Positions 3,542 to 39,998 of a stretch of DNA of 64,000 nucleotides are shown piece after piece (within the stretch, counting starts at the first letter, position 1; each line of letters starts with the position of its first letter). The notes beneath the pieces are model-generated. The model did no database searches, was not told the DNA's origin, and saw only the letters and a program-made list of their open reading frames with translations. Location: positions 64,001-128,000 of IMG/VR virus record IMGVR_UViG_3300021256_000062. One strand, given 5' to 3'. Source of the DNA: a virus (taxonomy: Duplodnaviria > Caudoviricetes). Made by a program: the position numbers and the translations under genes.

Positions 3542-5305
3542 TTAATTAATTAATTTATTTAATTCAACTTGTTGTTTATCAACTATTGTCTTTAATTGTT
3601 TAATTTCTTCTATTAATAAATAAACTAATTTATTTTCTTGAATAGATAAGTATCCATCCTTATTTTCATACACTAATTCTGGATATAATTGTTGTAAATC
3701 TTGTGCTAAACAACCAATTTGATTTTTAGCACCATCAATATAATCAAATCTCTTAATTGGTAAATCTAATATTGATTTAGTATATTTAAATGGACTGATG
3801 TTTTCTTTCAATCTTTGGTCAGATGTAGCATAAAAATTAACTGCAGTAACGCGACCTGCACATCCAATTTCATTTGCACTTAAATGATATGTGCTGATAT
3901 GTCCACCATGAATACCAGTATAACCTTCACTTGAAGTATATCCTACTTTTGTTATCTCAATCTTACCTTTTGAAATAGATAATAAATTATATTGTGGATT
4001 TTGAGTATTGCCCATAGATGTTAACTCATTATCTATTATTAGATTATTAAATTTTGCATTACCTGAATTATTAATATAATAATTAGTATTAGATGTACCT
4101 AAATATAATGTGCTACCTAGTCTTTTGTTAGCAGTGATTGTTTGAACAACATCTGAAAATAATACTCTATGTAAATTTAATTTTACATCATCCGTATCCG
4201 TATCTTTACCTATTACAACCCCATTTACTGCAGGTGTATTTATTCCACTACTTTTGATAGTAGTTCTTTCATATTCAGTTGCACCATTTGATTTTGTAAA
4301 AGTTAAGATATACTGATTATTAACACCAATATCTAGTTTAACATCTGACTCCAAATCACCATTTTTATGATAATTCAATGATGAGTTTTCAAAATAAATT
4401 GTATTATCTTCTCCAGATATAGTATTATCTCTTGCAGATAATGCTAGGAAAGGTTTTATAGAATTACCTGTATAAAATTCTACTTTTGAACTTTTAAATT
4501 GTTTGTAACAAGTTATAGTTTGGTCAGTGTCAATCATTTCAACTGTTCCAGATTGTTTAATATATGCCACAATTTCAGATGAACCAGTTTCTTTATTATT
4601 TAATCTAATAAATTTATTAGAATCCTTATCAATATTTAAATCATTAATTCCACTTGTATGTATATCAATAGAATCTAAACTACTTACTTTCGCATATGGA
4701 GTTATCAACTTAGCTGTTATTACTTTAGTGTTATCAATAACATCTAATGCAGATTTCTTAACTCCAGCATTAGTATGTCCACCATAAATATCATCTAAAT
4801 CTAATTTGAATTTACTATATTTTGGAATACTACCATCTTTAGAAAGACATAATGTGTAATACTCATCATCTGATGTTTGAATTTCAGGTATTGAATTAGA
4901 AATATATAATGCAATAAAATTAATATCACTATTATCTAAATAATCTAAATTTCTAGTATTGTATGTACTTGCATCATAAGGATATAATTCCCACATATTT
5001 ACATAATCAGTTTCACCTGTTATAGCTGTTTTAGATAATCTTATTGTTGCATACATATCTCCACTAGGTGTGAAATTCTTAACTTGGAAGAAATATCCAT
5101 GTATAAAAAATTCAATAACATTTTGTGAATAACTAACAATGAAACTTCCCTTATTTTGAGTAACTAATCTACTTACAATATTAGTTAAATTAAATTCGGT
5201 ATTTAATTTTGATTCTGGATTTACTGATATATCTACTCCACCATCATTATATTGTCTATAACCACTTGGGTACATATAAACATTTTCACTTTTAAAATAA
5301 CTCAT
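3542..5305 (-). CDS. tail fibre with C-terminal intramolecular chaperone (peptidase S74-like)
   Basis: SDQRLKENI...GCLAQDLQQLYPELV and a terminal coiled coil. Confidence 0.8.
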   Translation of the reverse strand: MSYFKSENVYMYPSGYRQYNDGGVDISVNPESKLNTEFNLTNIVSRLVTQNKGSFIVSYSQNVIEFFIHGYFFQVKNFTPSGDMYATIRLSKTAITGETDYVNMWELYPYDASTYNTRNLDYLDNSDINFIALYISNSIPEIQTSDDEYYTLCLSKDGSIPKYSKFKLDLDDIYGGHTNAGVKKSALDVIDNTKVITAKLITPYAKVSSLDSIDIHTSGINDLNIDKDSNKFIRLNNKETGSSEIVAYIKQSGTVEMIDTDQTITCYKQFKSSKVEFYTGNSIKPFLALSARDNTISGEDNTIYFENSSLNYHKNGDLESDVKLDIGVNNQYILTFTKSNGATEYERTTIKSSGINTPAVNGVVIGKDTDTDDVKLNLHRVLFSDVVQTITANKRLGSTLYLGTSNTNYYINNSGNAKFNNLIIDNELTSMGNTQNPQYNLLSISKGKIEITKVGYTSSEGYTGIHGGHISTYHLSANEIGCAGRVTAVNFYATSDQRLKENISPFKYTKSILDLPIKRFDYIDGAKNQIGCLAQDLQQLYPELVYENKDGYLSIQENKLVYLLIEEIKQLKTIVDKQQVELNKLIN

Positions 5306-9500: not shown

Positions 9501-10472
9501 ATATGCTTCATCTATATTTTCAGGGTCTAGTCCATTAGTTGCTGCAGCTGAGTTCAATACTATCAATAATTTAGTATTAGTATTTTCATCTTGAACTATA
9601 ACAGATTCATCACTATTTTCATAAGTTAAATTACTTTCAGCTGGTTGATACAATTTATTTAGTTTTCTTGCAGGTACATTTCCATTATAGCCTGATGTAA
9701 CTACATATTTAACATTTAAACCATTACTGATTAATTCAACAATATTACTTGGAAATTGAATATATGGTAATTCTTTATTTGAGTCATAACCAAATTTATA
9801 TATTAACTTATTCGGTGAGTATAAATTTAAATTATCTACTTTAGTCCATTGAGTCCAGTTATCCGGTTCATCTACAGTTTTAATGTATATTTGATTTTCA
9901 GCTACATATTTTGTAGGGAAGAATAATCTATTATTACTATCTAAGTTATTTAATTGTATATCTGAATTTCCATTAATTAATAAATCAGTAAAAGTACCTT
10001 CACATATTTTTCCAGAAAAGGCATAATTTGGTTCATTAATAGTTACACTATCAATTAATGAATATATGATTTCATTATTATCATCTGTAAATTGTGTGGT
10101 AAATTTATCAAATTTAATTGGTTTAGTTTTACTTACATCCCCATTATATTGAATAGAAATATTTGTTGTGGCACTTCTATAATATTTCATATTGTAACCT
10201 TGTGTTTCAACAATATCTCTAAAAGCTGACTCTTGAGTAGCACTAGGAATATGTGCTTGTAATGCACCTTGGTCACAGTTATAATTAATTTTATCTCCCA
10301 TAAATCCTAGTAATTTAAGTAATGCTACTAGAGGGTCAGATTCATTTGTACTATTTGGGTCCCATCTACTTGTTAATGTATTAACTAATTCAGTTATTTC
10401 TGGATATAGTTTTTGGAAATCCTTATTAGTATATGATATATTACTAATTTGTAATTCTTTATCTGAATACAT
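6504..10472 (-). CDS. baseplate wedge protein (T4 gp6/P2 gpJ-like) with long C-terminal extension
   Basis: SYTNKDF...ESDPLVALLKLLGFMGDKINY N-terminus; GLDPENIDE...LINCRDF. Confidence 0.8.
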   Translation of the reverse strand: MYSDKELQISNISYTNKDFQKLYPEITELVNTLTSRWDPNSTNESDPLVALLKLLGFMGDKINYNCDQGALQAHIPSATQESAFRDIVETQGYNMKYYRSATTNISIQYNGDVSKTKPIKFDKFTTQFTDDNNEIIYSLIDSVTINEPNYAFSGKICEGTFTDLLINGNSDIQLNNLDSNNRLFFPTKYVAENQIYIKTVDEPDNWTQWTKVDNLNLYSPNKLIYKFGYDSNKELPYIQFPSNIVELISNGLNVKYVVTSGYNGNVPARKLNKLYQPAESNLTYENSDESVIVQDENTNTKLLIVLNSAAATNGLDPENIDEAYFNFKKTIGTFNTLINCRDFANYLFNYLDSNGYPIVGNAQVTDRRIDINYSIPIITLTGSGPKLEYSYPASSETGVVINPFDLVLYPLNYVNNINTEDLYKMSFTPSQDMATIPAVFENSQSIDHTYIKPEGSTHRFLYKNYYGLDVKLTTTRKVNNAEREQLIKQVKQALFENFNSRKVNYGQELSYDLILDTIKNANPLIKSVSLDEPKITTKVMYADEDEKEVFVDGSTDYLVLLAKNILAGKVNIFEYDEDFDYSFGQIKTNEFNNITSIDSQLVIDKSAVTGANGFTLKDNQVVQLFSPSFAISNTAVAGVNYLLTSTDSSKVFISKNTTYKLSTDETLKLNATNSDGLNLTYIYSYTGPTWTKITMSGTQVLSTEKLEYVIIKPNFDLYYGERTTILVGDVRYNTLSTSEEIAFLNKITTKLENKTNAQAKIIKMYWYMDNVDNSLFNVNDIDLDGKMTTILTENEYLIYADDSMSQVEIFGAGTKLVTNMTDTVWTLDKSKLISLSELDNTNLSTYAAVQWREIVFKINDFVQVDEQNILTLTSGDTFTFENEPSEDLTSTLKDVESKFIYKIYGENKWTTLENNVADENWKIRTRLDINCGPILPQEIVCETGKFTETLTINYGNSQSIDVTEDQLMLNVYIQRSGNTPLIVDTSLLTLNGYLFKYQEPVIGVQPNPNVMGWYRKTGDNYYLATEFTVENHNYYKLQVANVTSSVTSSTYAQMVTDGLYLHTDETDTYTKITTEPYDSNKNYFEVVATLISKNPQSLGWYELDNSGVMVSSTDTSIQSGKNYYLSAGEPLQINNDGNIYINLENYRTQTIDLVIPMPMVVNKNSLVTMLYNKNTVNNESITLNGFTYQNLNDSTLTSSLQDGVNTLDISTINQNAYIRIVVASDSTSNLTIYPIKVKEGINDKFNLSEDEKAPFMNLISSMLSTNKNFYYMYDVPNDKVIDTNNFRDPSIMWDINNVVNRFTLAELDFDNSSIDVVKSSRS

Positions 10473-32930: not shown

Positions 32931-33149
32931 ACCTAGTACCCTATGAGTACCTTTAAATACATTACCTATTTGTTCACATTGTAGTGTAATTACATCATCA
33001 CTAATAGTATGTTCTTTAAATAATTTAAATTCATTAAATCTATCAGATAATGATATCTTAATTTCAGTTAAATCGCATCCATCAAATTCAGCAACTAAAT
33101 CATTAACTAAATTTTGTAAATCTTGTAAATTATTAATCAATACTACCAC
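32922..33149 (-). CDS. hypothetical protein
   Basis: Overlaps the phosphoesterase stop. Confidence 0.55.
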   Translation of the reverse strand: MVVLINNLQDLQNLVNDLVAEFDGCDLTEIKISLSDRFNEFKLFKEHTISDDVITLQCEQIGNVFKGTHRVLGKD

Positions 33150-33738
33150 CCCTATTTAATTTCTTTTCAGTTGCTTTATCAATAGTTATTCTATGAATAT
33201 CTTCTACTGATTTAAAGTATCCATTCTTGAATAATGATAATAAATTTATTGGAGTATAGTTAATATGTTCTGCACATACATTTAAATGATTTTCTCCAAC
33301 AAACCAATTTGAATGGTCGTGTCCATGTATATTGAATATACAATTAGGTAAATTCAATGGTTCATGTGATAACATTACCTTTTCACTAATCATTAATGGT
33401 CCTTCATATATTTCATCAAATAAATGATTATCATAATTTTCATTAATTTCTCTTTTATATTTTGAACTACCTACATCATGATTACCTTTAATCAATACCT
33501 TATAACTAGCTCTTAATTTAGATACAAAAGATATATCTCCAACATCTCCTAAACAAATTAATGTTGATTTTTTACCACATACTGAATTAATTCTTTTAAT
33601 TTGTTCTTCATCAGATATATAATTCTTTCTTATATATTTCATATCTGGGTCATTAAAATGTGGGTCTGAAATTATATAAACATCATTAGAATTATTAAAC
33701 CATTTATCAAAACAATGATATAAAAATTTATTCTCCAT
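33133..33738 (-). CDS. calcineurin-like metallophosphoesterase
   Basis: SDPHF, LGDVG, KGNHD, SHEP and IHGHDH motifs; start set at MENKF after GAAAGGGTGA. Confidence 0.9.
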   Translation of the reverse strand: MENKFLYHCFDKWFNNSNDVYIISDPHFNDPDMKYIRKNYISDEEQIKRINSVCGKKSTLICLGDVGDISFVSKLRASYKVLIKGNHDVGSSKYKREINENYDNHLFDEIYEGPLMISEKVMLSHEPLNLPNCIFNIHGHDHSNWFVGENHLNVCAEHINYTPINLLSLFKNGYFKSVEDIHRITIDKATEKKLNRGGSID

Positions 33739-33765
33739 TAAAATCACCCTTTCATTATAAGTAAC

Positions 33766-33865
33766 AAGACAGTGTTCTTTGCTTGGGATTTGAACCCAAA
33801 ATTGATTTCTTGGAAGGAAATTGACTTACCGTTTGTCTAGCATTTAGAATTGCTGTAACTGTCTT
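33766..33865 (-). ncRNA. ACAGCAA-stem RNA copy 1, carrying a tRNA-Gly(TCC)-like D/anticodon/T core
   Basis: AAGACAG-TTACAGCAA-TTCT...ATTTC CTTCCAA GAAAT...TTGGG TTCAAAT CCCAA...AGAA-CA-CTGTCTT. Confidence 0.75.
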
Positions 33866-33875
33866 TAATTTTATT

Positions 33876-33949
33876 TGGCAGGGGCGGAGAGATTCGAACT
33901 CCCGTTGATGGTGTTGGAGACCATAGTCCTACCACTGAACGACACCCCT
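33876..33949 (-). tRNA. tRNA-Trp(CCA)
   Basis: Cloverleaf; loop CTCCAAC; encoded CCA. Confidence 0.92.
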
Positions 33950-33950
33950 A

Positions 33951-34330
33951 TGGTGGAGATGAGGGGAATTGAACCCCTGTATTGAAATCAGTCCATTTGA
34001 CTTTCTACATATTATCTTATTTATGTCCTCGTACAAATTACATCATCAGTAAATAAGCAAATTAGAAATGTAATTCAATTAGTTTCTATGGTCATTTCGA
34101 TTTCCTTTCGACTACTAATAAATGCAAAGTTCATCTACCCCTATATCGATTAACTACTAATTAGTATAGGTATCCTAATTTTCGTTTCCTAATTTATCTA
34201 ATTAGGCAAATGCATATGCTCTAGGAGCATTGTTTAAAGTTGCGGTTATTTAAACCTCGACGTTGATAACCCAGTCTACTGGATATGCTTATCATCTTTC
34301 ATAACTCCAAGCGAATCCATAAACATCCCC
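33951..34330 (-). ncRNA. ssrA: tmRNA, tag (A)TLNNAPRAYAFA*
   Basis: GGGGATG 5' end; T-arm and CATCTCCACCA 3' end; ATAACC-GCA resume site; tag ORF 34243-34202. Confidence 0.92.
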
Positions 34331-34343
34331 ATATTTAATTTAT

Positions 34344-34418
34344 TGGCGGGTCCTGAGAGATTCGAACTCCCCTATGGCAGCTTAACAGGCTGCTGCCCAA
34401 CCACTAGGCCAAGGACCC
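34344..34418 (-). tRNA. tRNA-Asn(GTT)
   Basis: Cloverleaf; loop CTGTTAA. Confidence 0.9.
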
Positions 34419-34835
34419 TTTTAATATATTATCAATTAAATAATCTTTTTCATACTTAATATTTGATTTTTGACCATTTTTTGGGTTATCATATCTAATA
34501 TTAAGTCCACTTGTAGGTGCATCATCAATACTGATTAATAAAATAACATCTCTTGTTACATTATAACAAGCGAAATAATCAATTTCAGTAGCATTATAAA
34601 TATGTCTAACACCTTTTGTACAATGAAGAGTTGATGATACTAAACTAAATTTCATAACTCCATTCTCAGCTTTAACTGATGTTTTAACTTGGATTTTATT
34701 TAATTTACCATTAAATTCTGCAATTAAGTCAGCCTTTTCATTATCACCGAAAGGTACATAAACAGGTATACCTAACTCCACAAATTTACATAATACTTTA
34801 GCCTCTCCAATATTCCCTATTGACTTACTATTCAT
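34404..34835 (-). CDS. free-standing PD-(D/E)XK homing-type endonuclease (I-Ssp6803I-like family)
   Basis: GNIGEAKV...PFGDNEKADLI...KIQVKTS...IDYFACY; start revised to MNSKS. Confidence 0.8.
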   Translation of the reverse strand: MNSKSIGNIGEAKVLCKFVELGIPVYVPFGDNEKADLIAEFNGKLNKIQVKTSVKAENGVMKFSLVSSTLHCTKGVRHIYNATEIDYFACYNVTRDVILLISIDDAPTSGLNIRYDNPKNGQKSNIKYEKDYLIDNILKGSLA

Positions 34836-34855
34836 AATGTTACTCCTAATTATAA

Positions 34856-34932
34856 TGGTTCCACCTAGCGGACTCGAACCGCTCATCTACCGCGTGAAAG
34901 GCGGGTGTCTTAACCAACTCGACTAAGGTGGA
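34856..34932 (-). tRNA. tRNA-Glu(TTC)
   Basis: Cloverleaf; loop CTTTCAC. Confidence 0.9.
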
Positions 34933-34970
34933 ATATACTGATTATCTTTTACAATAATCAAAAATATTAA

Positions 34971-35046
34971 TGGTGGACAGGCTTGGAATCGAACCAAGAT
35001 ATCTAGTTCTTCAGACTAGCGCACAGACCACATATGCCATCTGTCC
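34971..35046 (-). tRNA. tRNA-Phe(GAA)
   Basis: Cloverleaf; loop CTGAAGA. Confidence 0.88.
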
Positions 35047-35047
35047 A

Positions 35048-35124
35048 TGGTCTCCTAAATTGGATTTGAACCAATACTTTGTAAGGTTTGAGCTTACTAC
35101 CTCTTCCAATTGGGTTATTAGGAG
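35048..35124 (-). tRNA. tRNA-Leu(CAA), short variable loop
   Basis: GTAAG CTCAAAC CTTAC. Confidence 0.85.
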
Positions 35125-35130
35125 TTGTAA

Positions 35131-35206
35131 TGGAGGTCTCTCTCGGATTTGAACCGAGGTTCATGGTGTTGCAGACCATTGCCTTAATCCACTTGGCTAA
35201 GAGACC
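35131..35206 (-). tRNA. tRNA-Cys(GCA)
   Basis: Cloverleaf; U73. Confidence 0.92.
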
Positions 35207-35211
35207 TATAT

Positions 35212-35288
35212 TGGTGGACCCTACAGGACTTGAACCTGTGACAACTCGGTTATGAGCCGAGAGTTCTAACCAACTGAACTAAAGGTCC
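35212..35288 (-). tRNA. tRNA-Ile2(CAT), lysidine type (or elongator Met)
   Basis: GGACCTT acceptor and CGG CTCATAA CCG resemble Firmicutes Ile2. Confidence 0.8.
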
Positions 35289-35294
35289 ATTTAC

Positions 35295-35363
35295 TAGATA
35301 CATATTATAATCGGACAAATTTTCAGTTCGTAGATTTTAATAGTAATTTGCTGTTAGTATCTA
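35295..35363 (-). ncRNA. ACAGCAA-stem RNA copy 2, carrying a Phe(GAA) anticodon stem-loop
   Basis: TAGATAC-TAACAGCAA...ACGAA CTGAAAA TTTGT...GTATCTA. Confidence 0.7.
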
Positions 35364-35603
35364 AATGTTCCTAATATTCTTTTAATGATGTATGATAGAT
35401 TGCAACACAATTGATGATTTATTTTTGCAAGTCACTTTCTCTATCAATTACTGATACACAATCCTTCATCATACATCCTGCATATTTTTAAATAATTTTC
35501 TTCATTGTAGTTGTTCTTTTAAATATTTATAAATTATTTGCAGTTCGTGACTTAATGTGATTTTGTTTAAAATTGTTCACCAACAACTTTTCATTATTAA
35601 ATA

Positions 35604-35679
35604 TGGTGAGTCCGACGAGGTTCGAACTCGTGACCCCATGATTAAAAGTCATGTGCTCTACCAGCTGAGCTACGGACTC
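35604..35679 (-). tRNA. tRNA-Lys(TTT)
   Basis: Cloverleaf; CATGA CTTTTAA TCATG. Confidence 0.93.
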
Positions 35680-35683
35680 ATCT

Positions 35684-35760
35684 TGGCACACCGTAAGAGA
35701 TTCGAACTCCTAACTTATCGCTTAGAAGGCGATTACTCTAATCCGTTGAGTTAACGGTGT
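35684..35760 (-). tRNA. tRNA-Arg(TCT)
   Basis: Cloverleaf; loop CTTCTAA. Confidence 0.92.
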
Positions 35761-35771
35761 ATTCACATATT

Positions 35772-35800
35772 ATTATACAACATATTTATTTAATTGTCAA
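35772..35800 (-). promoter_or_regulatory. sigma70-type promoter for a tRNA block
   Basis: TTGACA-17-TATAAT. Confidence 0.85.
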
Positions 35801-35838
35801 GTAGGACTAATTTAATAGCCCTACTTTTATTATTACAA

Positions 35839-37062
35839 TTAAATTAAATAGTGAATATTCTTTCCATAACTTCTCTTAAATACTAAATATTTTATTCCTT
35901 TAGAGATTAGAATATTATTCTTACATCTATTGTAATTATCCTTATAAGTTGTTACAGCATTCTTATATTCATCTTCATTCTCAAAATCACATCTATCTGG
36001 TTGATAGATTGATTCTTTACGTAATTCACTTGAAACCAATTCATCATAGTCTATATGTAAATCATTAGAATTAATGATATTTAACATCAACTTTGTGTCA
36101 AACTGAATATCTTGTGTATTAAATCTTATATAGTAACCATCGTAATCATAACAAGCATCTTGTTCACTAAATATATCTAGTCTTAATTTTGAAGTTGTTG
36201 TTTGTGTACCATCATTTAATATTGCATAAACATTGTAATAAACAGGTTCAATATTCACAATATTTAAATCTTTAATGGCTTCTTCAAATGGTATTCCTTG
36301 AGATAATTCAAATGATATTGCTCTTAAACAATCATAGTTTATATCAACTTTATTTGCGAAATTAATTACTTTAGATATTTCACCATAATATTTAGGTTCT
36401 AATTTATCTTCCATATATTCTCTAATTTCATCAGCTGTAGGATAATCAAATCTAAAATGATAATGAAATCTACCAGGTCTATTGATTAAGAAATCATTTA
36501 AACCATTTAAATCATTACATGTTACTACAAATAATTTCTTACTATTTGCAAGACCATCAAATAAAGTTAATAATGTAGTTTGGGAACTTGATGATGAGCC
36601 ATCTCTATCTTCATCTGTAAATTTCAAATTACCTCTACCACTTTGAGCTTGTGCAAAAGTTTTATCAAATTCATCAAATAAAACTACACACTCTTGTTCA
36701 ATTTCAGTTAGGTAATCAGCTATACCTGGGATATACTTATTAACAACTATAACAGGTAAGTTTTCCTCTAAAGATTTTTTTGCAATTAATTTTGCACAAA
36801 TTGATTTTCCTATTCCCTTATCTCCTGATAAAATAACACCAAGATTTCTGTTCATAAGTTTATAGGCATTTAATACCTTATTTACTTTAGATAAATGTGG
36901 ACCATAAATCTTTTCATTAACATCAATCATTGGATAAAGTTGTAAGAAAAATCCAGATAATGGAGAGAATTCTACAGTATAACACTTATTAGGTAATACA
37001 TCATAAGTTCTCAAATCATCATCATAAATTCTGTAAATATTTCCTGTATTTACAATTTTCAA
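35839..37062 (-). CDS. AAA+ ATPase
   Basis: Walker A GDKGIGKS, Walker B LFDEFDK, SRH INRPGRF. Confidence 0.9.
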   Translation of the reverse strand: MKIVNTGNIYRIYDDDLRTYDVLPNKCYTVEFSPLSGFFLQLYPMIDVNEKIYGPHLSKVNKVLNAYKLMNRNLGVILSGDKGIGKSICAKLIAKKSLEENLPVIVVNKYIPGIADYLTEIEQECVVLFDEFDKTFAQAQSGRGNLKFTDEDRDGSSSSSQTTLLTLFDGLANSKKLFVVTCNDLNGLNDFLINRPGRFHYHFRFDYPTADEIREYMEDKLEPKYYGEISKVINFANKVDINYDCLRAISFELSQGIPFEEAIKDLNIVNIEPVYYNVYAILNDGTQTTTSKLRLDIFSEQDACYDYDGYYIRFNTQDIQFDTKLMLNIINSNDLHIDYDELVSSELRKESIYQPDRCDFENEDEYKNAVTTYKDNYNRCKNNILISKGIKYLVFKRSYGKNIHYLI

Positions 37063-37085
37063 TTAAATCACCCTTTCATTTTTTA

Positions 37086-37162
37086 TGGTGCCATCTCTGG
37101 GATTCGAACCCAGACTTAAGGGCTTTTAAGACCCTTGCCTCTGCCAATTGGGCTAAGGTGGC
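37086..37162 (-). tRNA. tRNA-Leu(TAA), short variable loop
   Basis: AGGGT CTTAAAA GCCCT. Confidence 0.85.
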
Positions 37163-37168
37163 ATTTAT

Positions 37169-37245
37169 TGGTTCGCCAAAGTGGATTTGAACCACTGACC
37201 TCTCGATTATCGGTCGAGTGCTCTAACCAACTGAGCTACTGGCGA
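37169..37245 (-). tRNA. tRNA-Ile(GAT)
   Basis: Cloverleaf; loop CCGATAA (C33). Confidence 0.88.
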
Positions 37246-37248
37246 ATA

Positions 37249-37377
37249 TGGTACCCACAAAAGGACTTGCACCTAATACTGTATTGCGTTCATCTCGGTG
37301 GCCATCTCCAAGATTCATCCTCATCTCCTTATTTCAGTTTGCAACCATCCATAAATCAATGTGACTATAACGTGAGC
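37249..37377 (-). ncRNA. 129-nt tRNA-like RNA (acceptor stem, T-like arm and CCA; non-tRNA interior)
   Basis: GCTCACG.../TGTGGGT-A-CCA; AGG TGCAAGT CCT; internal ATCTTGG/CCGAGAT hairpin. Confidence 0.55.
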
Positions 37378-37391
37378 ATATATAAGTTTAA

Positions 37392-37481
37392 TGGCGGTGC
37401 GTGTAGGATTTGAACCTACGGGTGGAGAACCACCGCCGGTTTTCAAGACCGGTGCAATAAACCAGACTCTGCCAACGCACC
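37392..37481 (-). tRNA. tRNA-Ser(TGA)
   Basis: Long variable arm; loop CTTGAAA. Confidence 0.92.
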
Positions 37482-37488
37482 ATCTATT

Positions 37489-37564
37489 TGGCGACCCCAG
37501 TGAGACTTGAACTCACGACACCGGCGTGACAGGCCAGCATTATAACCAGCTTAACTATGAGGCC
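37489..37564 (-). tRNA. tRNA-Asp(GTC)
   Basis: Cloverleaf; loop CTGTCAC. Confidence 0.92.
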
Positions 37565-37620
37565 AAAAATAACTTGGTATCTTCCTAACCATGGCTTGTG
37601 TAGATACCAGAACCGTAACC

Positions 37621-37729
37621 TGGTGGATGAAGACAAGAATTTCACTTGCAAAGACCTTTAATTAACTAGTATACTGTATCAGTCACCATTGTTACAGAAT
37701 GGCTACTTTTTATAATTGTATATTCATCC
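37621..37729 (-). ncRNA. oversized atypical tRNA-Tyr(GTA)-like RNA
   Basis: GGATGAA/TTCATCC-A-CCA; CCATT CTGTAAC AATGG; ~35-nt variable region; T loop TGAAATT. Confidence 0.6.
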
Positions 37730-37750
37730 ATTTACTAAATATTAAATTAA

Positions 37751-37827
37751 TGGTCGGAGTAGCAGGATTCGAACCTGCGACGTCTAGTTCCCAAAACTAG
37801 TGACCTAACCAGCTGGCCTATACCCCG
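37751..37827 (-). tRNA. tRNA-Pro(TGG)
   Basis: Cloverleaf; loop TTTGGGA. Confidence 0.92.
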
Positions 37828-38036
37828 ATATTATAAAGATTTCCCTGTTTTATATCTCTATCAATCCCAATGACTCATACTACATTTTCCGAAATTTTAT
37901 AAACACTCTCATCTAAACTACTACCAATGCTTAATGGTTCAGTTGTAACGTACTCTCAACGTTATATTACCAACTATATCTGTCTTTATCTTTTTCAACC
38001 CATATTTTACAGCCAGGACTATAGCTATTTAATTAT

Positions 38037-38122
38037 TGGTGGTTGGGGTAGGATTCGAACCTACGTACCGATTAAGGAACAGATTTACAGTCTGTCGCGT
38101 TTAACCACTTCGCTACCCAACC
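38037..38122 (-). tRNA. tRNA-Tyr(GTA)
   Basis: Long variable arm; loop CTGTAAA. Confidence 0.92.
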
Positions 38123-38135
38123 ATATTATTTATTT

Positions 38136-38212
38136 TGGTGTGATGTGGGAGATTTGAACTCCCGACCCCTTGAGCCACAATCAAGTGTTCTACCAACTGA
38201 ACTAACACCACC
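38136..38212 (-). tRNA. tRNA-His(GTG)
   Basis: Loop TTGTGGC; encoded G-1; A73. Confidence 0.88.
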
Positions 38213-38217
38213 ATGTA

Positions 38218-38293
38218 TGGTGCAGTATACAGGACTTGAACCTATAACCTTTAGTTTGTAAGACTAACACTCTCCCAATTGAGTTAATACTGC
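38218..38293 (-). tRNA. tRNA-Val(TAC)
   Basis: Cloverleaf; loop CTTACAA. Confidence 0.92.
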
Positions 38294-38297
38294 ATAT

Positions 38298-38372
38298 TGG
38301 CAGGACCGGAAGGAATCGAACCTTCATAATTCGGGTCAAAGCCGAATGCACTAACCGTTGTGCTACAGTCCT
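38298..38372 (-). tRNA. tRNA-Gln(TTG)
   Basis: Cloverleaf; loop CTTTGAC. Confidence 0.92.
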
Positions 38373-38379
38373 ATAACTA

Positions 38380-38470
38380 TGGCGGTTGCTGAGGGACTTG
38401 AACCCCCGCGGGCTTTCACACCCCTATCGCGTTAGCAATGCGACCTCTTCACCAACTTGAGTAAGCAACC
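38380..38470 (-). tRNA. tRNA-Ser(GCT)
   Basis: Long variable arm; loop TTGCTAA. Confidence 0.92.
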
Positions 38471-38479
38471 ATCAAATAT

Positions 38480-38508
38480 ATTATACAATTATTTGTTTTA
38501 AATGTCAA
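38480..38508 (-). promoter_or_regulatory. sigma70-type promoter for a tRNA block
   Basis: TTGACA-17-TATAAT. Confidence 0.85.
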
Positions 38509-38529
38509 CTTTTTTATATTATTTTTTTT

Positions 38530-38605
38530 TGGCACATCCAGATGGATTCGAACCATCAATACCAGGTTCGTAGCCTGGTGGTTTAATCCATTAGCCTATG
38601 GATGT
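38530..38605 (-). tRNA. tRNA-Arg(ACG)
   Basis: CCAGG CTACGAA CCTGG. Confidence 0.9.
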
Positions 38606-38609
38606 ATAG

Positions 38610-38684
38610 TGGTACCACCTACCAGACTTGAACTGATATTATTCGGGTATGAACCGAACTTCCTAACCATTGAAAGAAAGTGGC
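38610..38684 (-). tRNA. tRNA-Met(CAT), elongator (divergent)
   Basis: TTCGG TTCATAC CCGAA. Confidence 0.8.
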
Positions 38685-38741
38685 ATAAAAAATATCAGTT
38701 TTCTTTTTAATTAGTCCTCTAAAACTGATAAAACCTGAACT

Positions 38742-38818
<77 letters not shown>

Positions 38819-38826
38819 ATATAAGT

Positions 38827-38904
38827 AATCAAACTCAATTGTGGAGGTGATTTAAGGTGAATGTTTTTTGGAGGAAAAAAATATTATTTCAATTGAGTTT
38901 GATT
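38827..38904 (-). ncRNA. hairpin RNA with three anti-Shine-Dalgarno motifs in its loop
   Basis: Perfect 15-bp stem AATCAAACTCAATTG/CAATTGAGTTTGATT; loop contains CCTCC, TCACCT and TCACCTCC. Confidence 0.55.
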
Positions 38905-38979
38905 TGGAGCGGATGATGGGAATCGAACCCACATATCCAGCTTGGAAGGCTGGAGTTCTAACCATTGAACTACATCCGC
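38905..38979 (-). tRNA. tRNA-Gly(TCC)
   Basis: Cloverleaf; loop CTTCCAA. Confidence 0.93.
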
Positions 38980-39018
38980 ATTTGAAGGTTTCAAGTCTTA
39001 TTATACCTACAACTTATT

Positions 39019-39095
39019 TGGTGGGGATGGAGGGAGTCGAACCCACACTGTCTAGTTTCTAAAACTAGTTCCTCTGCCAATTGGGATACATCCCC
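39019..39095 (-). tRNA. tRNA-Leu(TAG), short variable loop
   Basis: CTAGT TTTAGAA ACTAG. Confidence 0.85.
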
Positions 39096-39102
39096 AAAAT
39101 AC

Positions 39103-39219
39103 AAGACTCATTTATCATGGGTTTTGCAGGACTTGAACCTGCTACTTTCAAATTAGAAGTTTGACGCTCTACCAAATGAGCTAAAAATCCTAGAATGGAG
39201 TATTTGCAGTATGAGTCTT
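39103..39219 (-). ncRNA. ACAGCAA-stem RNA copy 3, enclosing a complete tRNA-Arg(TCT)-like cloverleaf (39118-39190)
   Basis: AAGACTC-ATACTGCAA...[GGATTTT...TCAAA CTTCTAA TTTGA...GCAGG TTCAAGT CCTGC AAAACCC]...GAGTCTT. Confidence 0.75.
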
Positions 39220-39295
<76 letters not shown>

Positions 39296-39448
39296 ATTTT
39301 AAGTGTTGATTTTCCTAGGTTCAACACTAGCTTATAAGCTATCCCACCCATCGGAAGGAGATAAGTCACCACTTTATCTTTCTTTCATTTATCAGATGAA
39401 CGCTTTATATCTATTATAACTGTTCTATAGTAACAGATATAAACTATA

Positions 39449-39524
39449 TGGTGGAGCTAGTCGGGTTCGAACCGACGACTTTCAACTTGCAAAGCTGACA
39501 CTCTCCCAACTGAGTTATAGCCCC
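39449..39524 (-). tRNA. tRNA-Ala(TGC)
   Basis: GGGGCTA acceptor with G3:U70; loop TTTGCAA. Confidence 0.93.
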
Positions 39525-39611
39525 AAACATGTCCAAGCTTAAAGTACGAGGACAGAATCCTACTAGAAGATAACTTAATATATTATACAATAATTGTTTT
39601 TAATTTTATAC

Positions 39612-39675
39612 AAGACTCTATTTTGGGTATTATGATTAAAAGTCATAGCCTAAAATAAATTGCGGTATAAGTCTT
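39612..39675 (-). ncRNA. ACAGCAA-stem RNA copy 4, carrying a Lys(TTT) anticodon stem-loop only
   Basis: AAGACTT-ATACCGCAA-TTTATTTTAGGC-TATGA CTTTTAA TCATA-ATACCCAAAATA-GAGTCTT. Confidence 0.75.
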
Positions 39676-39709
39676 TTTAAATTGTTCTTTATATTATTTT
39701 AAATGATTC

Positions 39710-39815
39710 AAGACACTTCTTTTTGCGTATACCATTTCGCCACTTAGCACATGCTGCTGAGATAGGATTCGAACCTATAATAATCTAAAAGATTAAGGTT
39801 TGCTGTATGTGTCTT
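39710..39815 (-). ncRNA. ACAGCAA-stem RNA copy 5, circularly permuted tRNA-like (YrlA-like topology)
   Basis: AAGACAC-ATACAGCAA...T arm ATAGG TTCGAAT CCTAT, loop-closed acceptor CTCAGCA GCATG TGCTAAG, D arm GCG AAATGGTATA CGC...GTGTCTT. Confidence 0.78.
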
Positions 39816-39849
39816 TATATCAGTAAAATTATTTATTTTATAAGTAATC

Positions 39850-39989
39850 AAGACATTCTTGTTGATTTTAAGTGTGATACCATTACACCACTCCCCTATA
39901 TAATTAAATATATGGCAGGGGAGGAATGGATTCGAACCATCATCACTGGAGTTGCAGTCCCTATCATTTAGAATTGCAGTAAATGTCTT
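39850..39989 (-). ncRNA. ACAGCAA-stem RNA copy 6, circularly permuted tRNA-Cys(GCA)-like
   Basis: AAGACAT-TTACTGCAA...GGA CTGCAAC TCC, T arm, CTCCCCT-G-CCA, AT linker, AGGGGAG, D arm...ATGTCTT. Confidence 0.78.
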
Positions 39990-39998
39990 TATTTTATT

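What the first reader, a model, noticed from the sequence alone, without database searches (positions are those of the whole stretch)
39612..39675. Minimal Lys(UUU) anticodon stem-loop mounted on the handle
This 64-nt RNA is only the handle plus TATGA CTTTTAA TCATA, nearly identical to the anticodon arm of the phage tRNA-Lys (CATGA CTTTTAA TCATG). tRNA-Lys(UUU) is an established target of PrrC and PARIS AriB anticodon nucleases. An unchargeable anticodon stem-loop fits a decoy or bait role (inference).
Basis: partly seen in the sequence, partly recalled or inferred. Interest (0 to 1): 0.75.

Follow-up and report, generated by a model that had tools for sequence, protein, structure and literature searches.

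The report
Phage Y-like RNA displaying tRNA-Lys anticodon arm
A large phage makes a roughly 65-nt RNA that is a conserved "handle" carrying a faithful copy of the tRNA-Lys(UUU) anticodon hairpin; such handle RNAs accompany a Ro60-shaped protein in many phages and probably act as bait for proteins that read or cut tRNA anticodons.

Summary
On the minus strand at 39611-39675, a 7-bp terminal helix and an unpaired ACCGCAA (the handle) enclose UAUGA-CUUUUAA-UCAUA. This differs from the phage's own tRNA-Lys(UUU) anticodon arm only in the closing pair.

The handle occurs nine times in this 159-kb phage, always on one strand. Most copies lie beside a DUF2828+vWA gene whose model folds like Ro60 (Z 22). 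The same handle lies beside DUF2828 genes in 86 of 88 other phage loci.

Short cargos are strongly enriched for 5-bp/7-nt hairpins with anticodon-type loops (24 of 82 against 1.0 in shuffles). 42% carry a loop identical to a real phage tRNA loop, against 1.3% of background hairpins. Lys CUUUUAA dominates, and its stems covary around the fixed loop.

It is therefore a Y-RNA-like molecule whose display module is an anticodon arm. This is a new variant of the Ro60/Y RNA kind and is absent from Rfam.

The decoy role against anticodon nucleases is plausible but untested. Expression and protein binding are also inferred, not shown.

This scan has noted the handle system before in at least 47 other genomes.

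The parts
39611..39675 (-). The whole handle RNA with the Lys(UUU) anticodon-arm cargo (copy C5), about 65 nt
   Evidence: The covariance model R1 scores it 60.1 bits, but the model includes this sequence, so that score is not independent.
39669..39675 (-). 5' arm of the handle helix, AAGACUU
   Evidence: Pairs with 39612-39618. The helix covaries across 24 homologues, with 7 of 8 pairs showing compensatory changes.
39660..39666 (-). Conserved unpaired handle motif ACCGCAA (family consensus ACAGCAA)
   Evidence: A, C, G, C, A, A are invariant in alignment A3.
39631..39647 (-). Anticodon-arm mimic UAUGA-CUUUUAA-UCAUA (5-bp stem, 7-nt loop with U33, UUU, A37)
   Evidence: All 5 stem pairs covary in homologues while the loop stays fixed.
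39612..39618 (-). 3' arm of the handle helix, GAGUCUU, followed by G at 39611
39999..41630 (-). DUF2828 + DUF7788 (vWA with a MIDAS motif) gene of 543 aa with a Ro60-like fold; the presumed protein partner
   Evidence: Pfam. Invariant D317/S319/S321. Model pLDDT 87. Ro60 structures are the top hits: Foldseek E 4e-8 and VIA Z 22.3.
41638..41700 (-). Handle copy C8 in the DUF2828 leader; its 3' arm abuts the ribosome-binding site
41720..41748 (-). Perfect sigma-70-type promoter (12 of 12, with TG) upstream of C8 and DUF2828. No terminator-like site was found from 41900 down to 38900, i.e. through C5 and into the start of the tRNA array.
39850..39989 (-). Handle copy C7: handle plus a permuted tRNA-like cargo (anticodon-like hairpin, T arm, closed acceptor, D arm)
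39710..39815 (-). Handle copy C6: handle plus a T-arm/D-arm (YrlA-like) cargo
39103..39219 (-). Handle copy C4: handle enclosing a complete tRNA-Arg(UCU)
35294..35364 (-). Handle copy C2: handle plus ACGAA-CUGAAAA-UUUGU (Phe GAA-type loop)
   Evidence: 36.3 bits.
35429..35553 (-). Handle copy C3, with a cargo that is not tRNA-like
33766..33865 (-). Handle copy C1: handle plus a tRNA-like cargo (Rfam tRNA model, 41.5 bits)
35604..35679 (-). The phage's genuine tRNA-Lys(UUU), whose anticodon arm the finding copies

Best explanation
The element is a small non-coding RNA of a phage ribonucleoprotein that parallels Ro60 with its Y RNAs.

The handle is the covarying 7-8 bp helix joining the two ends, followed on the 5' strand by two variable nucleotides and the unpaired ACNGCAA motif. 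It is the docking site for the Ro60-shaped DUF2828/vWA protein encoded just upstream. This docking is inferred from co-occurrence and from the analogy with Y RNAs.

The variable module is a faithful, unchargeable copy of the tRNA-Lys(UUU) anticodon arm. This is shown by sequence, and selection on it is shown by covarying stems around a fixed loop.

I propose that the particle presents this arm as bait to a protein that recognises the tRNA-Lys anticodon loop. The most likely target is a host anticodon nuclease of the PrrC, RloC or AriB type. The bait would compete for it or sequester it, sparing the tRNA-Lys that the phage needs. The phage's own polynucleotide-kinase-like and RNA-ligase genes would belong to the same conflict.

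My odds:
- A genuine member of the handle RNA family that is expressed: about 0.85.
- The anticodon mimicry is under selection: about 0.9.
- The target is an anticodon nuclease, as decoy or inhibitor: about 0.35.

The confidence given is for the bait reading as a whole.
For: The handle is real and tied to the protein.
- It occurs 9 times in the genome, all on one strand, with none in the controls.
- In 86 of 88 DUF2828 loci from GenBank and IMG/VR phages the same pattern (6 nt, 2 nt, ACNGCAA, then the complementary arm) lies near the gene. There are 358 copies on the gene strand against 85 antisense.
- The carriers range from Bacillus, Listeria, Staphylococcus and Enterococcus phages to FelixO1, KVP40 and a mycobacteriophage.
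- Covariance model R1 finds 191 matches at E <= 0.01, all on the gene strand.

The partner protein folds like Ro60.
- The model has pLDDT 87 and pTM 0.87.
- The 13 best Foldseek hits are Ro60 structures aligned over the full length.
- VIA gives Z 22.3, rmsd 3.9 A over 398 residues to 1yvp. Hits to the vWA domain alone reach at most Z 11.6.

The cargo mimics an anticodon arm.
- 24 of 82 unique short cargos hold a 5-bp/7-nt hairpin with a Y-U-NNN-R-N loop, against 1.0 +/- 1.0 (maximum 4) in 200 shuffles.
- 35 of 83 distinct cargo hairpins have a loop identical to a real phage tRNA anticodon loop, against 284 of 21,612 background hairpins (odds ratio 55, p 2e-42).
- Lys CUUUUAA makes up 12 of 35, against 9 of 333 tRNA genes (p 7e-11).
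- In 24 homologues 99% of cells pair, 12 of 13 pairs show compensatory change, 0 of 500 shuffles reach this, and slid controls pair at 31-48%.
- The loops follow tRNA rules: A37 after U36 or A36, and G37 with Pro and Leu(UAG)-type anticodons.

The context is tRNA breakage and repair.
- A ninth handle RNA directly follows an operon of an AAA_33 kinase-like gene, DUF3310 and an RNA ligase.
- In two lineages an RNA-ligase homologue starts about 100 nt after the anticodon-arm handle that follows DUF2828.

From the literature:
- AriB cuts tRNA-Lys(UUU), Thr(UGU) and Asn(GUU), the same three that recur on this scaffold (PMC12409363).
- The Felixounavirus homologue Bas63 gp130 counters the Ppl defence (preprint 10.1101/2024.10.10.617714).
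- In Listeria phage CKA15 the Rsr-like homologue lies within 2 kb downstream of very abundant unannotated RNAs (PMC12282133). I find its three handle RNAs in that interval.
Against: - No expression, RNA ends or protein binding are shown for this phage.
- A stoichiometric decoy is a weak answer to a catalytic nuclease unless binding is tight.
- AriB is reported to need contacts beyond the anticodon arm, in the D-loop and elsewhere.
- The host of this phage, and whether it carries any anticodon nuclease, is unknown.
- The link between anticodon-arm handles and repair genes within 8 kb is not significant once loci are collapsed to lineages (6/4 against 21/39, p 0.13; for Lys alone p 0.46).
- Other frequent loops, such as Ser UGA, Met CAU and Ile GAU, are not classic nuclease targets.
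- The closest relative (L010, 74% protein identity) carries its Lys-arm handle in the DUF2828 leader against the ribosome-binding site, which hints at a regulatory use.
Confidence: 0.45

Rival explanations
1. The RNA is an adaptor for helpful enzymes rather than bait for a nuclease. The anticodon arm would tether the Ro60-like ring to enzymes that handle tRNA-Lys: the phage RNA ligase and kinase, host LysRS, or anticodon-loop modification enzymes. The particle would then work as a repair or quality-control platform for tRNA-Lys, as is proposed for bacterial Rsr-YrlA next to RtcB.
For: - An RNA ligase gene lies directly after the anticodon-arm handle in two lineages.
- A kinase-like/ligase operon is followed by a handle RNA in this genome.
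- RtcB lies about 1.3 kb downstream of the DUF2828 gene in Listeria phage LP-125.
- Y RNAs are known tethers, and the bacterial rsr-yrlA genes sit in an RNA-repair operon (abstracts of PMC4201824 and PMC7790460).
- Jumbo-phage TROVE proteins have been read as repair platforms (PMC7824862).
Against: - The association with repair genes is not significant at lineage level.
- Most loci show no repair gene within 8 kb.
- An intact hairpin loop is not a ligase substrate.
- Nothing shows binding.
Confidence: 0.25
2. Only the handle matters. On this reading the RNA is a protein-binding site, serving as an autoregulatory operator or a titrating sponge for the DUF2828 protein. The anticodon arm would be an inert stable hairpin inherited from a tRNA-derived ancestor.
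For: - Handle copies sit in the DUF2828 leader with the 3' arm touching the ribosome-binding site, in this window and, with a Lys arm, in the closest relative L010.
- Many handle RNAs carry cargos that are not tRNA-like.
Against: - The loop CUUUUAA is kept while all five stem pairs change, in 15 distinct stems and 17 lineages. An inert hairpin would not conserve its loop.
- Loops obey tRNA position-37 rules.
- Copy C5 is not next to any ribosome-binding site. The nearest annotated gene downstream is tRNA-Ala, 87 nt away.
Confidence: 0.08
3. It is a decayed tRNA-Lys pseudogene, or a chance hairpin in AT-rich DNA, with no function.
For: The window is AT-rich and full of tRNA genes. The fold z-score alone is modest at -2.64.
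Against: - Shuffles and background hairpins give far fewer such loops.
- The structure covaries across distant phages.
- The handle is strand-specific and tied to one gene family.
Confidence: 0.02

Closest known systems
Ro60 (Rsr) with Y RNAs, especially bacterial and phage YrlA (Rfam RF02553; Chen et al. 2014, PMC4201824)
   Same: - A ring-plus-vWA protein of Ro60 fold.
- Small RNAs encoded beside the gene.
- RNA ends joined in a helix, with a conserved unpaired motif on the 5' strand.
- A variable distal module that imitates part of a tRNA.
- A link to RNA repair genes.
   Different: - The protein is DUF2828+DUF7788, not Pfam TROVE. A profile search reaches Ro60 only at E about 0.7.
- The RNA motif is ACNGCAA, not GNCGAA(N)G.
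- The Rfam YrlA model does not match (17 bits against a threshold of 69; no hits in 8 phage loci).
- This RNA shows the anticodon arm alone, whereas YrlA shows the elbow (T arm, D arm, closed acceptor).
Thermus phage phiLo Ro60 with Yrl1/Yrl2 (PMC12135203; PDB 9KOP, 9L5Y)
   Same: A phage-encoded Ro60-fold protein with adjacent Y-like RNAs, proposed to interfere with host RNA metabolism. It is the second-best structural match.
   Different: phiLo Ro60 is a TROVE protein, and its RNAs carry the CGAA bulge motif. No anticodon-arm cargo is described. Its reported partner is host PNPase.
Bas63 gp130 (Felixounavirus; PhageMaP preprint 10.1101/2024.10.10.617714) and Listeria phage CKA15_055 (PMC12282133)
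   Same: These are likely the same protein family. CKA15 holds LP-125's DUF2828/handle region at 96.8% identity, and LP-125 and FelixO1 are DUF2828 homologues. Bas63 gp130 itself was not compared here. Both proteins lie next to tRNA arrays and were noted as Ro60- or Rsr-like, and both papers speculate that nearby RNAs might be Y RNAs. gp130 counters the Ppl defence. CKA15_055 lies downstream of hyper-abundant unannotated RNAs.
   Different: Neither paper defines the RNAs, the handle motif or the anticodon-arm cargos.
Phage answers to anticodon nucleases: T5 tRNA-Lys/Thr/Asn variants against PARIS AriB (PMC12409363), and T4 Pnk plus Rnl1 against PrrC (my own knowledge)
   Same: The same tRNA species are involved (Lys UUU, then Asn GUU and Thr UGU). 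The elements sit in phage tRNA arrays, and kinase-like and ligase genes are present in this genome.
   Different: Those are full, chargeable replacement tRNAs with nuclease-resistant substitutions, or repair enzymes. This is an unchargeable arm with a canonical loop, mounted on a protein-binding handle.
Class I RNAs of dictyostelid amoebae (Rfam RF01414; PMC7919456)
   Same: A short helix joins the ends, a conserved motif of about 11 nt lies next to the 5' strand with C..CAA at its end, the rest is variable, and the length is about 60 nt. This was a lead from earlier notes of this scan.
   Different: The Rfam model does not reach significance in this genome: the best score is 16.5 bits against a threshold of 41.5, and the finding itself is not hit. 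The known binding protein is an RRM protein. Any relationship remains unproven.

Membership tests
Ro60/Y RNA ribonucleoprotein (YrlA-type Y RNA) | The partner protein has the Ro60 architecture: a helical-repeat ring plus a vWA domain with a MIDAS motif. | tested here: met
   Model pLDDT 87. Ro60 structures are the top 13 Foldseek hits over the full length. Z 22.3 to 1yvp_A against at most 11.6 for vWA-only hits. D-x-S-x-S is invariant.
Ro60/Y RNA ribonucleoprotein (YrlA-type Y RNA) | The partner protein belongs to the TROVE sequence family. | tested here: not met
   Pfam gives DUF2828 + DUF7788 and no TROVE in the window protein and five homologues. A profile search against PDB reaches Ro60/TROVE only at E about 0.7, in the vWA part.
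Ro60/Y RNA ribonucleoprotein (YrlA-type Y RNA) | The RNA gene lies next to the protein gene on the same strand. | tested here: met
   C5 lies 324 nt downstream of the gene's stop. 86 of 88 homologous loci have handles on the gene strand. All 191 model hits are on the gene strand.
Ro60/Y RNA ribonucleoprotein (YrlA-type Y RNA) | The 5' and 3' ends form a helix flanked by a conserved, largely unpaired protein-binding motif on the 5' strand. | tested here: met
   The helix covaries, with 7 of 8 pairs compensatory. ACNGCAA is invariant. The motif differs from GNCGAA(N)G and GGUCCGA.
Ro60/Y RNA ribonucleoprotein (YrlA-type Y RNA) | A match to the Rfam YrlA covariance model, or a tRNA-elbow domain (T arm, D arm). 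| tested here: not met
   YrlA scores 17 bits against a gathering score of 69, at another place, and does not hit 8 phage loci. This RNA has no T or D arm, although sister copies C6 and C7 do.
Ro60/Y RNA ribonucleoprotein (YrlA-type Y RNA) | Physical binding of the RNA to the protein. | not testable with these tools
   This needs RIP or CLIP, or a gel-shift assay.
tRNA (RF00005) | A cloverleaf with an acceptor stem that can be charged. | tested here: not met
   Neither ARAGORN nor the Rfam tRNA model calls anything at 39611-39675. The sequence has no acceptor, D or T arm.
tRNA (RF00005) | An anticodon arm: a 5-bp stem and a 7-nt loop with U33 and a purine at position 37. | tested here: met
   UAUGA-CUUUUAA-UCAUA. 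The loop is identical to that of the phage tRNA-Lys(UUU).
Dictyostelid Class I RNA (RF01414) | A score above the Rfam gathering threshold. | tested here: not met
   The best score in the genome is 16.5 bits against 41.5. The finding itself is not hit.
Dictyostelid Class I RNA (RF01414) | A short terminal helix plus a conserved motif next to the 5' strand, with a variable remainder. | tested here: inconclusive
   The general layout agrees with the description in PMC7919456. The motif letters are not printed in the text held, and no homology was shown.
Anti-defence decoy or inhibitor of an anticodon nuclease | It binds, or is cut by, a tRNA-Lys-specific nuclease and relieves defence. | not testable with these tools
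   Only circumstantial evidence exists: the overlap with AriB targets and repair genes nearby.

The most novel reading that the evidence does not exclude
Phages of many families carry a Ro60-like particle whose interchangeable RNA subunits display single tRNA parts. The anticodon-arm subunits (Lys UUU above all, then Asn, Thr, Ser and others) would be RNA-based anti-defence factors. They would capture or inhibit host anticodon nucleases, possibly as renewable decoys that the phage ligase and kinase reseal. That would be a new class of counter-defence. It would also give the first clear molecular job for a Y-RNA display module.
Probability: 0.3. Interest if true: 0.9.

Novelty: new variant of a known kind. 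Interest (0 to 1): 0.78.

Why it matters
Why Ro60 partners with tRNA-like Y RNAs has been open since YrlA was described. Here the display module is reduced to one recognisable part, an anticodon arm, with a strong preference for tRNA-Lys(UUU), the tRNA most often attacked by bacterial immune nucleases. That turns a vague resemblance to tRNA into a directly testable idea: which anticodon-reading protein does the particle engage?

The system occurs in cultivable phages of Bacillus, Listeria, Staphylococcus, Mycobacterium, Salmonella/E. coli and Vibrio. One homologue of the protein already has a counter-defence phenotype. If the bait reading is right, phage tRNA arrays hold a hidden layer of RNA anti-defence genes that current annotation and Rfam miss.

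Tried and rejected
- **Rfam.** No family matches the handle or this RNA at gathering or E-value thresholds. YrlA scores only 17 bits, at a different place.
- **Class I RNA of Dictyostelium (lead from earlier notes).** RF01414 gives at best 16.5 bits in this genome, so it is not supported here.
- **Close relatives by single-protein search of IMG/VR.** None were found. An alignment query was needed.
- **Closest relative L010 (74% protein identity).** It has no copy of C5 at the matching downstream position. Its Lys-arm handle is in the leader instead.
- **Link between anticodon-arm handles and RNA repair genes within 8 kb.** It is not significant at lineage level (p 0.13 and 0.46), so only the synteny in two lineages is reported.
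- **A general rule that the arm copies the phage's own tRNA-Lys stem.** Rejected: identity is 4-6 of 10 in three relatives against 8 of 10 here.
- **A leave-one-out covariance model.** MAFFT misaligned the 3' arms in A4, so model R1 includes the window sequence and its score for C5 is not independent.
- **RtcB and T4-type Rnl1 families.** Not found in this genome, and the Rnl1 search had no positive control.
- **Terminator reading.** No terminator-like site lies in 38900-41900, and the hairpin has no U tail.
- **Literature.** Searches for DUF2828 itself gave only plant papers. No paper was found that describes anticodon-arm decoy RNAs in phages.

Full report
**What is there.**
Read on the minus strand, 39675-39611 is: AAGACUU, AU, ACCGCAA, a 12-nt linker, UAUGA-CUUUUAA-UCAUA, a 12-nt linker, GAGUCUU, G. 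The two outer heptamers pair, and so do the linkers in part (UAUUUU/AAAAUA and GG/CC). The RNA is therefore one long imperfect hairpin topped by a 5-bp stem and a 7-nt loop (-10.8 kcal/mol, z -2.64).

The phage's real tRNA-Lys(UUU) at 35604-35679 has the arm CAUGA-CUUUUAA-UCAUG. No ORF of 60 aa or more overlaps the element. ARAGORN and Rfam call no tRNA there. With no acceptor, D or T arm it cannot be charged.

**The handle is a repeated, strand-specific module.**
The pattern AGWYNNNNACNGCAA occurs 8 times in the window, all on the minus strand, against 0.27 expected. It occurs 9 times in the 158,917-bp virus record, with none on the other strand or in the reversed controls. Each copy closes with a complementary 3' arm. 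The cargos differ:
- C7 carries a permuted tRNA-like body.
- C6 carries a T-arm/D-arm body.
- C4 encloses a whole tRNA-Arg(UCU).
- C1 carries a tRNA-like body.
- C2 carries a Phe-type hairpin.
- C3 and C8 carry cargos that are not tRNA-like.
- C5, the finding, carries the Lys arm.

C8 lies in the leader of a 543-aa gene (39999-41630, minus strand), behind a perfect sigma-70-type promoter. No terminator-like site was found between that promoter and the start of the tRNA array (38900-41900 scanned). C7, C6 and C5 may therefore be cut out of one long transcript. That is inference.

**The neighbouring protein is Ro60-shaped.**
Pfam calls DUF2828 plus DUF7788 (a vWA-type domain), not TROVE. The D-x-S-x-S MIDAS motif is invariant. 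A profile search of PDB sequences reaches Ro60 only at E about 0.7. The AlphaFold model is confident (pLDDT 87.3, pTM 0.87). Its 13 best Foldseek matches are Ro60 structures from frog, human, Deinococcus and Thermus phage phiLo, aligned over the full length. The second-look aligner gives Z 22.3 (rmsd 3.9 A over 398 residues) to 1yvp, against at most 11.6 for proteins that share only the vWA domain.

**The handle travels with this protein family.**
tblastn finds the protein in 701 GenBank phage records. All eight that I opened have handle RNAs beside the gene, on its strand, with different but complementary arms. These were Bacillus PK-3 and Skywalker, Enterococcus GVEsP-1, Staphylococcus 6ec, Listeria LP-125, mycobacteriophage Kingsolomon, FelixO1 and KVP40.

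Across the eight GenBank loci and 80 further IMG/VR loci fetched with a protein alignment, the pattern with a helix of at least 7 bp occurs 358 times on the gene strand and 85 times antisense, in 86 of 88 loci. A covariance model built from 24 members finds 191 matches at E <= 0.01, every one on the gene strand. Rfam has nothing for them, and YrlA does not match. All homologues tested are DUF2828, never TROVE, so the TROVE-based Y RNA survey of 2014 would not have seen them.

The commonest cargo length is 30-50 nt. Results on the short cargos:
- Of 82 unique short cargos with a helix of at least 8 bp (100 on the gene strand against 3 antisense), 24 contain a perfect 5-bp/7-nt hairpin whose loop reads Y-U-NNN-R-N. 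Shuffled cargos give 1.0 +/- 1.0, with a maximum of 4 in 200.
- Only 12.5% of all such hairpins in these loci have such a loop, and CUUUUAA is 0.25% of them.
- 35 of 83 distinct cargo hairpins have a loop identical to the anticodon loop of a real tRNA gene in these loci, against 284 of 21,612 background hairpins (odds ratio 55, p 2e-42).
- Lys CUUUUAA accounts for 12 of those 35 but only 9 of 333 tRNA genes (p 7e-11). Ser(UGA) is also over-represented.
- The wider catalogue reads Lys UUU (19), Ser UGA (11), Asn GUU (7), Met CAU (4), Ser GCU, Ile GAU, Arg UCU, Cys GCA, Thr UGU, Gln UUG and Phe GAA. Pro- and Leu(UAG)-type loops carry G at position 37, as real tRNAs do.
- In an alignment of 24 Lys, Asn, Thr and Gln-type members, 99% of cells pair and 12 of 13 pairs show compensatory change. 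No shuffle of 500 reaches this, and slid controls pair at 31-48%. All five pairs of the anticodon stem vary while the loop stays fixed.
- Lys-arm handles occur in 19 of 89 sources, or 17 of 70 lineages at 85% DNA identity, with 15 distinct stems.
- Beneath the arm, 16 of 24 have a 3-bp helix with one unpaired base on the 5' side and 2-5 on the 3' side, against 6.6 +/- 2.0 (maximum 14) in shuffles. This resembles position 26 and the variable loop of a tRNA. That resemblance is inference.

**Repertoire turnover.**
The closest relative (L010, 74% protein identity) lacks a copy at the C5 position. It carries a Lys-arm handle in the DUF2828 leader, with its 3' arm touching the ribosome-binding site. 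L009 (56% identity) has a Lys-arm handle downstream of the gene.

The L010 counterparts of C1, C4 and C7 keep their bodies but show other anticodons: Gly UCC becomes Ser GCU, Arg UCU becomes Thr UGU, and Cys GCA becomes Asp GUC. This fits display of an anticodon better than decoding.

Only in this window does the arm closely match the phage's own tRNA-Lys stem (8 of 10, against 4-6 of 10 elsewhere).

**Context and function.**
The ninth handle RNA directly follows an operon of an AAA_33 kinase-like protein, DUF3310 and an RNA ligase. In two lineages the gene order is DUF2828, anticodon-arm handle, RNA ligase. Listeria phage LP-125 has RtcB about 1.3 kb downstream of the DUF2828 gene. After collapsing loci to lineages, however, the association with repair genes within 8 kb is not significant.

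From the literature:
- Y RNAs tether Ro60 to effectors, and bacterial YrlA mimics the tRNA elbow (PMC4201824).
- Thermus phage phiLo Ro60 with its Yrl RNAs binds host PNPase (PMC12135203).
- The Felixounavirus homologue Bas63 gp130 is Ro60-like and counters the Ppl defence. Its authors guessed that some neighbouring tRNAs are Y RNAs.
- In Listeria phage CKA15 the Rsr-like CKA15_055 lies within 2 kb downstream of hyper-abundant unannotated RNAs, which the authors suggest may be Y RNAs.
- I find three handle RNAs in that interval behind a TTGACA promoter. The text does not say whether they are among the abundant regions.
- AriB of PARIS cuts tRNA-Lys(UUU), Thr(UGU) and Asn(GUU) in the anticodon stem. 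These are the three types that recur on this scaffold. AriB needs contacts outside the arm (PMC12409363).
- PrrC cuts the tRNA-Lys loop, with t6A37 as a positive determinant (a reference cited there). That PrrC accepts anticodon stem-loop analogues is from my own memory.

**Verdict.**
The element is a member of a widespread family of handle RNAs that accompany a Ro60-shaped phage protein. No description of the family appeared in my searches of the held paper library, and no Rfam family matches it. Its cargo is a selected mimic of the tRNA-Lys(UUU) anticodon arm.

The best-supported mechanism is a Y-RNA-like particle that presents this arm to an anticodon-reading protein. I put a host anticodon nuclease first (about 0.35) and a repair or tRNA-handling enzyme second (about 0.25). 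Protein binding, expression and the target are all inferred.

It is a new variant of the Ro60/Y RNA kind. It fails the sequence-level membership tests (TROVE, the YrlA model, the CGAA motif) while matching the architecture. Other agents of this scan have described the same handle system in at least 47 other genomes. The specific contribution here is the quantitative test of anticodon mimicry, the dominance of Lys, and the covariation.

Noticed in passing
window 39103-39219 (-) and L010:3878-3994: Handle copy C4 encloses a complete tRNA. Its anticodon is UCU (Arg) here and UGU (Thr) in the 74%-identical relative, with an otherwise near-identical body. An identity switch by one base suggests that it is displayed rather than used for decoding.
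   Followed up: partly
window 33766-33865 (-) and 39850-39989 (-); L010:3440-3539 and 9831-9970: The tRNA-like cargos of C1 and C7 also change their anticodon-like loops between relatives: CUUCCAA becomes CUGCUAA, and CUGCAAC becomes AUGUCAA.
   Followed up: partly
window 41638-41700 (-), promoter 41720-41748 (-); L010:7921-7985: A handle copy lies in the DUF2828 leader with its 3' arm directly against the ribosome-binding site. In the relative L010 this leader copy carries the Lys arm. This points to possible autoregulation of the protein by its own RNA-binding site.
   Followed up: partly
G000:C1:144580-144735 (-) = L089:2080-2235; genes at L089:2267-3457 and 3674-4732: A ninth handle RNA of about 150 nt directly follows an operon of an AAA_33 kinase-like protein, DUF3310 and an RNA ligase (PF09414 with a PHA02142 OB domain). 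This looks like a healing-and-sealing pair of the kind T4 uses against PrrC.
   Followed up: partly
L010:9637-9806: A large handle RNA right after the DUF2828 stop codon has the motif variant ACAGCGA instead of ACAGCAA, so pattern searches undercount the family.
   Followed up: no
L090:2837-3328 (Listeria phage cka15, OR088597.1 26,236-26,727); window 41782-42947: In CKA15 an unannotated stretch of about 490 nt upstream of the handles gives up to two thirds of all phage transcripts (PMC12282133). This window also has an ORF-poor stretch just upstream of the DUF2828 promoter. A large structured RNA may belong to the same locus.
   Followed up: no
Listeria phage CKA15 protein CKA15_055 (L090:296-1816, -): The paper detected this DUF2828 homologue in purified virions with 57% peptide coverage, so the protein might be injected with the DNA.
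   Followed up: no
window 43703-46642 (-): A 979-aa protein combines a nucleotidyltransferase domain with an ART-PolyVal ADP-ribosyltransferase domain, two genes upstream of the DUF2828 locus.
   Followed up: no
window 33876-39524 (-): An array of 27 tRNA genes and a tmRNA gene lies on the same strand as the handle RNAs. An AAA ATPase gene (35839-37062) and a metallophosphoesterase gene (33133-33747) are also there.
   Followed up: no
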